Shown here: positions 42,683 through 54,194 of the stretch, in pieces
Layout: each line of letters opens with the position of its first letter
How positions within the stretch are numbered: the stretch's first letter is position 1
Assembly (NCBI GenBank): GCA_964342815.1
Contig: CAYFHS010000001.1
Span: 243,849 to 307,848 of the forward strand
Length of the DNA: 64,000 nt
Source: an uncultured archaeon
GTDB taxonomy: Archaea > Thermoplasmatota > Penumbrarchaeia > JASLWR01
Direction: 5' to 3'
Translations under genes and position numbers: made by a program
Notes under the pieces: model-generated
Seen by the model: the letters and a program-made list of their open reading frames with translations, nothing else
Told to the model about the DNA's origin: nothing
The model's database searches: none

Positions 42683-43104
42683 GAGACAATACCCGATTAC
42701 ATGAATACTTATATATTTTTTTTATCATTTAGGAAATACAGACCATCCTGTCGTTTTTTCCGAGCATCACGGCATATCCTCCGGCATGCCTGACCTGCCC
42801 GGGCGTTACCGGGCAAGAGGACTCCCGAATTTCTTTTTTTCCTATTTTTTTCTTTGTGAGGGTTGGCCAGCGGAGGAAAAATCCCAAAGAAAAAAACGGT
42901 TTTTTATCTGAAGACACTCATTCGTTTTTTTTTCACTGAATAAGAACGGCCTTAATTCTCTGGAGCGAAAAGATATGTTATAGAGCCTGACCGATCAATC
43001 ACTTTTCCAAGATTTCCGCATCGAAAGGTATCTTATCCCTGAAAAATCTCAATTTTCCGGTGTGAAGTGGTCATAGATGCTATTGAGTTTTATCCGCAGG
43101 TGAC

Positions 43105-52944: not shown

Positions 52945-53310
52945 AAATGTGGGATCCGTCTTCACTTGACAAGACGGAGGCTACTGGCCCTTCTTGGCAT
53001 GTTAGAAGTGCCAGTATGGTACGTCTTTACTTGTAAAGTCAGGAACATTTGGACTGACTTCTTGGTAAAGGTGTCCCGTACCGGGCCCTATTACTTGTTC
53101 AGCCAAGCCCATAGGTCTTGGCTTCTCAAGTACGATGTGCCAGAATGGGTCGGCTTTTCACGTAAAGCCAGGAACATTTGGACTGTCTTCTTGGTAAAGT
53201 TGAACCAGAATGGGACGGCTTTACACGTAAAGTCAGGCACATTTGGACTGACTTCTTGGTAAAGTTGAACCAGAATGGGACGGCTTTACACGACAAGTCA
53301 CCACCTGTCC
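52945..53310 (+). repeat. 65-bp-period non-coding repeat array with hairpins
   Basis: Unit starts 52967, 53032, 53097, 53161, 53226, 53291; the 53161 and 53226 units are near-identical and the others align mostly without gaps. Confidence 0.85.
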
Positions 53311-53580
53311 TGTGCGGTGAGTCCACTGCGTTCCGATGCCCGCGTTGCTTCGGTGAATAGAAATTCACCTGCCTCCTCGGCCAACTAACTGTTGGCCGGG
53401 ACCGAAACGTTCCCAAAAGGAATGTTTCCAGTATCGGAACATTACCCCCAGGATGCATTGGAAATGCATCTTCTCTCGTAGCTTTGCTTTGCGAGGGTGT
53501 AGCAGAGCCCAGGGGGTCTGCATAGCAAAGCGGACACCCTCAGGAGCAAGCTCCTTACGGGAGCCGCTAGGGTCACCTTC
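53298..53580 (+). ncRNA. Candidate structured RNA downstream of the 65-bp array
   Basis: Long-range helix 53330-37/53433-40 enclosing hairpins 53352-69, 53378-98 and 53404-28; further stems 53452-70, 53473-97, 53494-540. Confidence 0.45.
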
Positions 53581-53774
53581 ACCACACAATGAAAGCAAAA
53601 CCGCATAATTATTATGTGATTTTAAAGAGATTATTTGGAACAATCGTCAGGGAGGGAATAAAATTTGTCGGCAAGCCTGCGGCTGCTTATAATTATGATT
53701 TTAATACCGCATATATCATCGGCTGAAAATTATTATTCAATTACTTTTAAATATTTCAAAGGCCTTCTGGGGGT

Positions 53775-54194
53775 TTGGTGGAATTTATGGACCATGTAGC
53801 TGAATATAATAGAAATCCTTTAAGTAAGATGGTCACAGGCACCAGGAAGGCTGCCGTACATTTTCTTAAAAAAATGGAACCGCCCTTCGAGAGTATAGGT
53901 GAGGATGATACGCTATACATGACCACGAGGGATGGAATAACCATTGCGAAGGCCGAGGTTGAAAAGGTTGAGAACTTCAAGGATTTGGACCCCGAGAAGG
54001 CGAAACAGATTATCACCGAGCATAAGGATGAGATTTCGCCAACACAGATCATGCTCGAAAGAGATATTTACAGAAAGTATCTTACCATCATATGGTTAAA
54101 GAACCTTCAGGAGATGGCCCCTTTTACAATATCTCCGAAATATAAACACCAGCATTGGGTATCAGTGGAAGATATAAACAAAATACGACGTTAA
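53775..54194 (+). CDS. Hypothetical protein, tentatively ASCH/PUA-like
   Basis: MDHV..Y...KMVTGTRK...IGEDDTLY...AKAEVEKV...YLTIIWL...PF.I...W pattern. Confidence 0.5.
   Translation: MVEFMDHVAEYNRNPLSKMVTGTRKAAVHFLKKMEPPFESIGEDDTLYMTTRDGITIAKAEVEKVENFKDLDPEKAKQIITEHKDEISPTQIMLERDIYRKYLTIIWLKNLQEMAPFTISPKYKHQHWVSVEDINKIRR

What the first reader, a model, noticed from the sequence alone, without database searches (positions are those of the whole stretch)
53298..53580. Second multi-branch structured region, possibly homologous to the 43.1-43.6 kb element
Seen: an 8-bp long-range helix GTTCCGAT/ATCGGAAC closes three hairpins and is followed by more stems, with G-T pairs on the + strand. Motifs appear in the same order as at 43.1 kb: a GTGAA..TTCAC hairpin, a further hairpin, a GAAAC..GTTT hairpin, CYCTCG...TGCG, then TGTAGC(T)AGA...AGCAAAGC (43320-52 versus 53498-531). 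Inference: two diverged members of one RNA family, each next to a tandem array.
Basis: partly seen in the sequence, partly recalled or inferred. Interest (0 to 1): 0.7.

Follow-up and report, generated by a model that had tools for sequence, protein, structure and literature searches.

The report
Nested small hairpin repeats, not RNA
The strongly folded 260-base stretch is four tiny hairpin-forming DNA repeats inserted one inside another, copies of a repeat family scattered over 100 times through this marine archaeon's genome, and not a dedicated RNA gene.

Summary
It is not one conserved RNA.

Copies elsewhere show four short repeats nested to three levels:
- Host copy A spans 53316-53577.
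- A carries B, a reverse-strand copy (53475-53536).
- A also carries C' (53336-53380 plus 53438-53451).
- C' carries D, a 57-nt two-hairpin element (53381-53437).

A, B and C' belong to one ~64-72-nt two-hairpin "core" family. It has at least 117 copies at 94 sites in this genome, at least 130 and 147 in two relatives, and 2 in a third. The hp2 motif sits at background in 57 other Thermoplasmatota.

A model built from copies outside the window hits only two places in the 64 kb: this region and 43.0-43.6 kb.

The long-range helix is pieced from three different elements. It is missing from the sister species' composites. The whole 680-nt block is absent from the syntenic site in that species.

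Most likely this is transposase-less mobile DNA, like REP/BIME elements or the PATE/SMR repeats of Haloquadratum. No mobilising enzyme was found. The scan reached the same reading elsewhere in this genome.

The parts
52950..53315 (+). Array of 65-nt U units. The last part (about 53283-53315) is a diverged U-like unit that leads into element A.
   Evidence: TRF finds period 65 with 92% matches. nhmmer finds units at 53033-53087, 53097-53160, 53162-53225 and 53227-53290. U is dispersed: 75 hits, and BLAST of the array gave about 49 places (500-nt bins). That the last unit is U-like rests on alignment by eye only. The U profile did not confirm it.
53316..53335 (+). Element A, 5' part: closing-stem strand GGTGA (53316-53320) and the conserved single-stranded arm GTCCACTGCGTTCCG (53321-53335).
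   Evidence: Alignment A2. The closing stem is GGTGA/TCACC here and GGCGA/TCGCC in C13, C19 and C66, a compensatory change.
53336..53380 (+). Element C', 5' part: a core-family copy (arm, hairpin 1 at 53352-53369, 5' side of hairpin 2). It sits inside A at the arm/hairpin-1 junction, bounded by GATGC at 53335-53339 and 53452-53456.
   Evidence: R1 hit 53334-53405, E 6e-9. C' is absent from G000 copies C20, C66, C13 and C19, and present without D at five G001 loci.
53381..53437 (+). Element D: a 57-nt two-hairpin element inside the loop of C' hairpin 2, bounded by TCGG at 53377-53380 and 53434-53437.
   Evidence: All five G001 composites lack it. The D family has 9 copies in this genome; most sit after (C)TCGG inside a core hairpin 2 and run into the rest of that hairpin.
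53438..53451 (+). Element C', 3' remainder (AACATTACCCCCAG).
   Evidence: Alignment A2.
53452..53474 (+). Element A hairpin 1 (GATGCAT/ATGCATC, 53452-53470) and linker TTCT.
   Evidence: R1 partial hit 53452-53470. It is contiguous with the A arm in copies that lack C'.
53475..53536 (-). Element B: a core-family copy in reverse orientation, inserted between hairpin 1 and hairpin 2 of A.
   Evidence: R1 hit 53470-53539 on the minus strand, E 1.7e-4. B is absent from C13:108083-108173 and C19:6008-6076. It is present in C20, C66, C1:342963-343092 and the G001 copies.
53537..53577 (+). Element A hairpin 2 (CCC-TC-AGGAGC..GCTCCT-TAC-GGG, 53537-53561), tail, and closing-stem strand TCACC (53573-53577).
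   Evidence: R1 partial hit 53535-53563; alignment A2.
53330..53440 (+).
   Evidence: It is present in the MFE fold. Its two strands come from the A arm plus the start of C' on one side, and from the 3' end of D plus three bases of C' on the other. G001 composites lack D and so lack ATCGGAAC. Of the other six D-bearing copies folded, only C36 forms a similar helix.
43024..43592 (.). The comparison region: another pile-up of core-family copies. Plus strand: 43221-43291, 43433-43483. Minus strand: 43024-43076, 43313-43383, 43484-43551, 43552-43592.
   Evidence: R1, filters off, E 4e-11 to 0.01.

Best explanation
The region is a three-level nest of four small hairpin-forming DNA repeats. It sits at the end of an array of a further repeat, the 65-nt U unit.

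Three of the four (A, B, C') are copies of one lineage-restricted core element of about 64-72 nt. The core has:
- a conserved single-stranded arm (GCCCACUUCGCUCCG);
- hairpin 1;
- the linker CUG;
- hairpin 2, whose outer and inner stems are split by a conserved UC / UAC internal loop.

The fourth, D, is a different 57-nt two-hairpin element.

Shown: the elements are dispersed, intergenic and independent of gene orientation. They come and go between sister species. They insert into one another at preferred positions.

Inferred, at about 50%: they are non-autonomous mobile DNA. A so-far unidentified enzyme would read the hairpins, probably on single-stranded DNA, and insert next to a short sequence that matches the element's own 3' end.

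The large multi-branch fold is a by-product of stacking hairpin elements, not a selected RNA architecture.

The confidence figure of 0.8 is for the identity of the region as a nest of dispersed repeats. The mobilisation mechanism is held at about 0.5.
For: Nesting:
- BLAST and alignment of paralogous copies give every intermediate: A alone, A+B, A+B+C' and A+B+C'+D, with sharp boundaries.

Family:
- A 20-copy alignment supports the two-hairpin structure. 89.9% of cells are paired against 78% in shuffles (0 of 500 as high). 11 of 17 pairs show compensatory changes. Slid controls reach at most 46%.
- Model R1 finds at least 117 copies at 94 sites in this genome. All window hits with E < 0.01 lie in 43.0-43.6 kb or 53.3-53.6 kb.

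Orientation:
- In co-directional intergenic regions, 25 copies are sense and 26 antisense.

Distribution:
- The hairpin-2 pattern scores 65 against 4 control in this genome, 96 against 4 in the same genus, 95 against 15 in a second genus, and 1 against 2 in a third. It is at background in 57 other Thermoplasmatota.
- R1 counts are at least 130, at least 147 and 2 in those three relatives.
- A stricter pattern (hairpin-1 3' strand, linker and hairpin 2) found only one other species among 185,579, plus one metagenome.

Gain and loss:
- The syntenic intergenic region in the sister species has 57 nt where this genome has the 680-nt block, with flanks 77-78% identical.
- A second relative also lacks the block.
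- Six repeat clusters in the sister species are empty sites here.

Target preference:
- Cutting out nested copies restores a full host core in 9 cases. Seven inserts sit at host position 18-22 in the same orientation. They are bounded by a 4-nt repeat, TGCA or CGCA, that equals the insert's own 3' end.
- C' in the window sits at that same spot.
- D copies mostly sit after TCGG inside hairpin 2.
Against: No mobilising enzyme was found.
- This genome, 89% complete, has no Y1 transposase and no TnpB.
- The Y1 genes in two relatives are ordinary IS200-type, with different end hairpins that do not occur in this genome.

Other weaknesses:
- No terminal inverted repeats.
- The short junction repeats cannot separate a target duplication from microhomology, or from insertion beside a fixed tetranucleotide.
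- Copies are more alike between species (85-92%) than the orthologous flanks (77-78%). That would also fit purifying selection on a cellular function.
- Several nested events may be copies of one event amplified as a unit.
- My gene map is a crude ORF map.
Confidence: 0.8

Rival explanations
1. A single multi-branch structured non-coding RNA gene, homologous to a second member at 43.1-43.6 kb.
For: Strong fold, z -7.07. Shared motifs with 43.1 kb; pairwise alignment z 3.4.
Against: - The fold breaks down into four separately dispersed elements with all intermediates present.
- Its closing helix is not conserved.
- The locus is empty in the sister species.
- No Rfam family matches.
- The two regions hold different numbers and orientations of copies.
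Confidence: 0.03
2. The core hairpins are cellular RNA-level or DNA-level functional modules kept by selection, however they first spread. Examples would be protein-binding sites that affect mRNA stability, transcription or chromosome structure, as proposed for bacterial REPs.
For: The conserved UC/UAC internal loop and the arm are kept while all three stems co-vary. Copies are more similar between species than neighbouring orthologous DNA. Location is almost wholly intergenic.
Against: - There is no orientation bias relative to genes, 25:26.
- Presence or absence differs at orthologous loci.
- Copies disrupt one another's hairpins by nesting.
- One genus in the same family has only 2 copies.
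Confidence: 0.15
3. The nests arise without a dedicated transposase. Microhomology-mediated recombination, template switching or gene conversion would act between copies that share short palindromes such as ATGCAT or TGCA.
For: TGCA or ATGCAT recurs up to four times per element. The junction repeats equal the insert's own 3' end. No transposase was found.
Against: - Solitary copies sit in unique DNA at sites that are empty in the sister species.
- One near-identical subfamily entered at least four different host copies at the same relative position.
- D inserts at a different, equally specific site.
Confidence: 0.15
4. The elements spread through an RNA intermediate (retro-mobile, SINE-like).
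For: The elements are compact and strongly folded on one strand. No DNA transposase was found.
Against: No poly-A or other 3' tail, no flanking duplications of variable length, precise internal target positions. Reverse transcriptase genes were not searched.
Confidence: 0.04

Closest known systems
PATEs (palindrome-associated transposable elements) and SMR-A small mobile repeats of Haloquadratum walsbyi (PMC3119063)
   Same: Archaeal, too short to encode a transposase, and numerous. PATEs have no terminal inverted repeats but do have near-terminal palindromes. SMR-A elements insert preferentially inside the palindromes of other mobile elements, building nests. Their mobilisation is called enigmatic in that paper.
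   Different: - PATE palindromes resemble those of IS605-type transposons in the same genomes. Here no IS605-type element with matching hairpins exists.
- SMR-A elements are about 110 bp with prominent inverted terminal repeats. The core and D elements are 57-72 nt without them.
- There is no sequence similarity, and the phylum differs.
Bacterial REP / BIME / REPIN elements with RAYT (TnpA-REP) transposases (PMC3116915, PMC2817692, PMC3733652)
   Same: Short imperfect-palindrome repeats at more than 100 copies per genome. They are intergenic, clustered in mosaics with alternating orientations, vertically persistent within a lineage, and their hairpins carry conserved unpaired bases. On the complementary strand, hairpin 2 reads C-GTA-GG, which recalls the GTAG tag.
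   Different: - No RAYT. The Y1 genes of relatives score 22-26 bits on the RAYT model against a cut-off of 80, and 100-115 bits on the IS200 model.
- The GTA lies in an internal loop, not as a 5' tag.
- The unit has two hairpins plus a conserved arm.
- The host is an archaeon.
MITEs
   Same: Non-autonomous, short and multi-copy, with short direct repeats at junctions.
   Different: No terminal inverted repeats, and no related autonomous transposon. The insertions are orientation-specific and land inside sister elements.

Membership tests
Any Rfam RNA family | Score at or above the family's gathering threshold | tested here: not met
   No gathering-level hit in the 64 kb. The permissive searches of both regions gave only chance-level hits, E 1.9 or worse.
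   The sister species has 57 nt in place of the 680-nt block. There are no R1 hits at the syntenic loci of two relatives.
   The five G001 composites lack one strand of it. Of the other six D-bearing copies, only C36 forms a similar helix.
REP / REPIN with RAYT | High-copy intergenic imperfect palindromes | tested here: met
   At least 117 copies at 94 sites, mostly intergenic.
REP / REPIN with RAYT | A cognate RAYT (TnpA-REP) gene, usually flanked by the repeats | tested here: not met
   - No Y1_Tnp in this genome.
- The relatives' Y1 proteins are IS200-type, below the RAYT cut-off.
- They are not flanked by core copies.
- The IS200 end hairpins are absent here.
REP / REPIN with RAYT | A GTAG or CGTC tetranucleotide tag at the 5' end of the palindrome | tested here: inconclusive
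   The complement of hairpin 2 reads CC-GTA-GG. The GTA forms an internal loop between two stems rather than a terminal tag.
MITE | Terminal inverted repeats related to an autonomous transposon | tested here: not met
   The ends of aligned copies are not inverted repeats.
MITE | Target-site duplication | tested here: inconclusive
   Direct repeats of 3-5 nt (TGCA, CGCA, GATGC, TCGG, CCC) bound the nested inserts. They equal the insert's own end, so duplication cannot be told from insertion beside a fixed site.
PATE (IS605-derived) | Palindromes similar to those of IS605-type transposons in the same genome | tested here: not met
   No Y1_Tnp or TnpB here. The IS200 hairpins of the relatives differ from hairpins 1 and 2.
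SMR-A-like behaviour | Preferential insertion into hairpins of other small mobile elements | tested here: met
   Seven of nine nested cores sit at the arm/hairpin-1 junction. D copies mostly sit inside hairpin 2.

The most novel reading that the evidence does not exclude
The core, D and U elements form a self-targeting system of transposase-less archaeal mobile DNA, moved by an enzyme of a kind not yet recognised. That enzyme would read a hairpin with a fixed UC/UAC internal loop on single-stranded DNA. It would choose its target by matching a short sequence to the element's own 3' end, a guide-like rule, so that the elements preferentially colonise each other's hairpins.
Probability: 0.2. Interest if true: 0.7.

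Novelty: new variant of a known kind. Interest (0 to 1): 0.35.

Why it matters
For annotation, it removes a false candidate. Hairpin nests like this give extreme folding z-scores and mimic large structured RNAs, and this genome holds dozens of them.

For mobile-DNA biology, it gives a cleanly resolved three-level nest with every intermediate preserved. The insertion positions are reproducible: the arm/hairpin-1 junction, the hairpin-2 loop, and the linker. This occurs in an archaeal lineage where no matching transposase is visible. That makes the question "what moves transposase-less hairpin repeats?" approachable, because the target and the element ends are now defined to within a few bases.

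Tried and rejected
- Rfam at gathering and permissive thresholds: nothing. tRNA/tmRNA scan: none.
- Expression: no RNA holder listed among public runs.
- Laid DNA contigs from four marine samples. Contigs with no differences bridge the C' and D junctions. The "joints" that skip 117 or 62 nt match paralogous copies, so they say nothing about polymorphism.
- Y1 transposase and TnpB in this genome: none.
- Y1 genes in the relatives looked promising because they occur in the two element-rich relatives and not in the poor one. They are IS200-type with unrelated end hairpins, those hairpins are absent here, and only a weak core-like hit lies outside one of them. Rejected as the mobiliser on present evidence.
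- The only two genes flanked on both sides by core copies are an FGE-sulfatase-like protein and a PNPase-like protein, not transposases.
- G.T against A.C mismatch test for a preferred folding strand: 21 against 52, but 23 of the A.C cases come from two columns of one subfamily. Inconclusive.
- U profile on the last array unit after removing the nest: no junction-spanning hit. That A sits in a U-like frame therefore rests on alignment by eye and on three clear cases elsewhere of a core inside a U unit.
- Literature searches found no description of these elements in Thermoplasmatota.
- Ideas considered from memory and dropped because the defining motifs are absent: K-turn, bulge-helix-bulge intron, hammerhead or twister ribozyme, group II intron domain V, integron attC.

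Full report
**Observation.**
The window lies in a 4.35-Mb, 116-contig, 89%-complete genome of a marine Thermoplasmatota archaeon. A CGI-121 gene and giant zinc-ribbon surface proteins are nearby, and the closest other species is the MAG ETNP2_MAG_1.

The finding sits in a 957-nt intergenic region. On one side is an 886-aa gene on the minus strand. On the other is a 139-aa ORF on the plus strand.

The stretch 53290-53590 folds to -129 kcal/mol, z -7.07. The minus strand folds almost as well, z -5.2. No Rfam family matches.

**What the pieces are.**
BLAST against the organism's own genome showed that separate parts of the region recur separately at many sites. Aligning the best copies gave a clean series:
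- Two loci (C13, C19) have only a ~90-nt element A: arm, hairpin 1, linker, hairpin 2, and a short closing stem.
- Three loci (C20, C66, and C1 46 kb downstream) have A with a 62-nt insert B between hairpins 1 and 2.
- Five loci in the sister species have A+B plus a ~60-nt insert C' between the arm and hairpin 1.
- The window has A+B+C' plus a 57-nt insert D in the loop of C' hairpin 2.

Each insert is bounded by a short direct repeat:
- CCC for B in most copies;
- GATGC for C' (53335-53339 and 53452-53456);
- TCGG for D (53377-53380 and 53434-53437).

The closing stem of A is GGTGA/TCACC here and GGCGA/TCGCC elsewhere.

**One family.**
Profile searches started from A, B and C converged on one unit. 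I aligned 20 copies from elsewhere in the genome (A1). The unit is a conserved arm, a 7-bp hairpin 1, the linker CUG, and a hairpin 2 with a fixed UC / UAC internal loop between a co-varying outer stem and a highly variable inner stem.

Pair counts support this:
- 89.9% of cells are paired, against 78% in shuffles (0 of 500 as high).
- 11 of 17 pairs show changes on both sides.
- Slid controls reach at most 46%.

The covariance model R1 built from that alignment was run with filters off over all 64 kb. Every hit with E < 0.01 fell in 43024-43592 or 53334-53563. B is recovered as a minus-strand copy (E 1.7e-4) and C' as a plus-strand copy (E 6e-9).

- GTGAA..TTCAC is a hairpin 1.
- CYCTCG..TGCG is a hairpin 2.
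- TGTAGC..AGCAAAGC is a reverse-oriented copy.
- In both regions a plus copy happens to be followed by a minus copy.

Direct pairwise alignment of the two regions is only weakly significant, z 3.4 with 2 of 300 shuffles as high. That fits two different assemblies of diverged copies.

**The long-range helix.**
GTTCCGAT is the end of A's arm plus the first bases of C'. ATCGGAAC is the last five bases of D plus three bases of C'. The sister species' composites lack D and so lack the helix. Of the other six D-bearing copies, only C36, which also sits behind another arm, forms something similar. The multi-branch fold is therefore a by-product of the nesting.

**Genome-wide behaviour.**
R1 finds at least 117 copies at 94 sites: 76 single, 13 pairs and 5 triples. 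Only 150 of about 1,460 candidates were scored, so this is a lower bound.

With a crude ORF map, most copies are intergenic. In co-directional intergenic regions, sense and antisense are 25 and 26.

The hairpin-2 pattern is enriched in this genome (65 against 4 control), its congener (96 against 4) and one other genus of the family (95 against 15). It is not enriched in a third genus (1 against 2) or in 57 other genomes of the phylum. R1 counts agree: at least 130, at least 147, and 2.

A stricter pattern, which adds the hairpin-1 3' strand and the linker to hairpin 2, was scanned over 185,579 species and a metagenome collection. It found one further species and one metagenome.

**Gain and loss.**
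At the syntenic site in the sister species, the conserved flanks (77-78% identical) are 57 nt apart instead of 680. A second relative also lacks core copies there.

In the other direction, six of twenty loci fetched around core copies in the sister species are empty in this genome. One has flanks abutting to the base.

Composite copies are 90-96% identical within a genome and 85-92% between genomes.

**Target preference.**
I cut each of the 117 copies out in silico and asked whether the joined flanks make a full host core. This gave nine nested events.
- Seven inserts are in the same orientation as the host, at host model position 18-22. That is the arm/hairpin-1 junction, the same spot as C' in the window.
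- In the cases that restore a perfect host hairpin, the junction repeat is TGCA. In another subfamily it is CGCA. In both it equals the insert's own 3' end.
- Two inserts are reversed and sit at the linker/hairpin-2 border, as B does.

Most of D's nine copies sit after (C)TCGG inside a hairpin 2. Core copies also sit inside the second hairpin of bona fide U units at three loci. This is why I read A as a U-like unit carrying a core. The profile test did not confirm that last step.

**Mechanism.**
Shown:
- The elements are dispersed, structured, lineage-restricted, independent of gene orientation, and polymorphic between species.
- They nest at reproducible positions.

Inferred:
- They are non-autonomous mobile DNA recognised through their hairpins.
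- The lack of inverted terminal repeats, the conserved unpaired bases in the hairpins, and insertion beside a tetranucleotide that also ends the element all resemble IS200/IS605-type and REP/RAYT single-strand transposition. That comparison rests on established knowledge of those families.

The enzyme is missing, however. There is no Y1 transposase or TnpB here. The Y1 genes of two relatives are IS200-type with unrelated end hairpins that do not occur in this genome.

Microhomology-driven recombination and retained cellular function remain live alternatives.

**Comparison with known systems.**
The nearest described systems are the PATE and SMR-A repeats of Haloquadratum, read in PMC3119063, and bacterial REP/BIME/REPIN elements. 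The region fails the defining tests for membership in each: no related IS605 element, no inverted terminal repeats, no RAYT. It is best called a new variant of transposase-less hairpin repeats.

Earlier follow-ups of this scan reached the same reading for other stretches of this genome, including 43.1 kb. I re-derived it here from the sequence.

Noticed in passing
G000:C11:20126-22504 (locus L048:527-2905): A 792-aa protein with two RNase PH domains, KH and S1, the bacterial PNPase layout, in an archaeal genome. It is flanked on both sides by core repeat copies.
   Followed up: partly
L055:1405-1896(-), L053:1423-1890(-), L054:1465-1956(+): Intact IS200-type Y1 transposase genes in the sister species (two, plus three fragments) and in a second genus (one). 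The G001 copy read (L055) has subterminal hairpins of the form CCAGNNCC-TTTA-GGNNCTGG. None occur in this genome or in the element-poor genus.
   Followed up: partly
window 52860-52949: An AT-rich segment with a TATATAAAG box at 52899. It is conserved with the sister species although it lies just outside the repeat block. It could be a divergent promoter or the start of a small transcript reading into the repeats.
   Followed up: no
window 42720-42750; G000 C5:94028, C21:36316, C2:227195, C23:52656, C2:179772: At least five loci share the flanks tcatttaggaaatacaga + core copy + tcgattttttt(c)gtcaatcgcgagaac. In those places a core copy is part of a larger multi-copy upstream region. The same left flank stands at 42720-42750 in the window.
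   Followed up: no
alignment A1; for example G000 C23:38265-38332: The first bases of the core arm tend to repeat the 5' outer strand of hairpin 2 (CTGCGCCC twice in C23; GCGCCC in C16 and C2). Both can therefore pair with the same 3' strand. This could be an alternative fold or a guide-like feature.
   Followed up: partly
window 53775-54194: The 139-aa ORF downstream of the block has no Pfam family. It is conserved in two relatives.
   Followed up: no
G001:C117:13577-16649 (L080) against G000:C20:9557-12431: The A+B composite on C20 may be shared at a syntenic site with the sister species: 561 nt against 368 nt between the aligned flanks. That would make it an old insertion.
   Followed up: no
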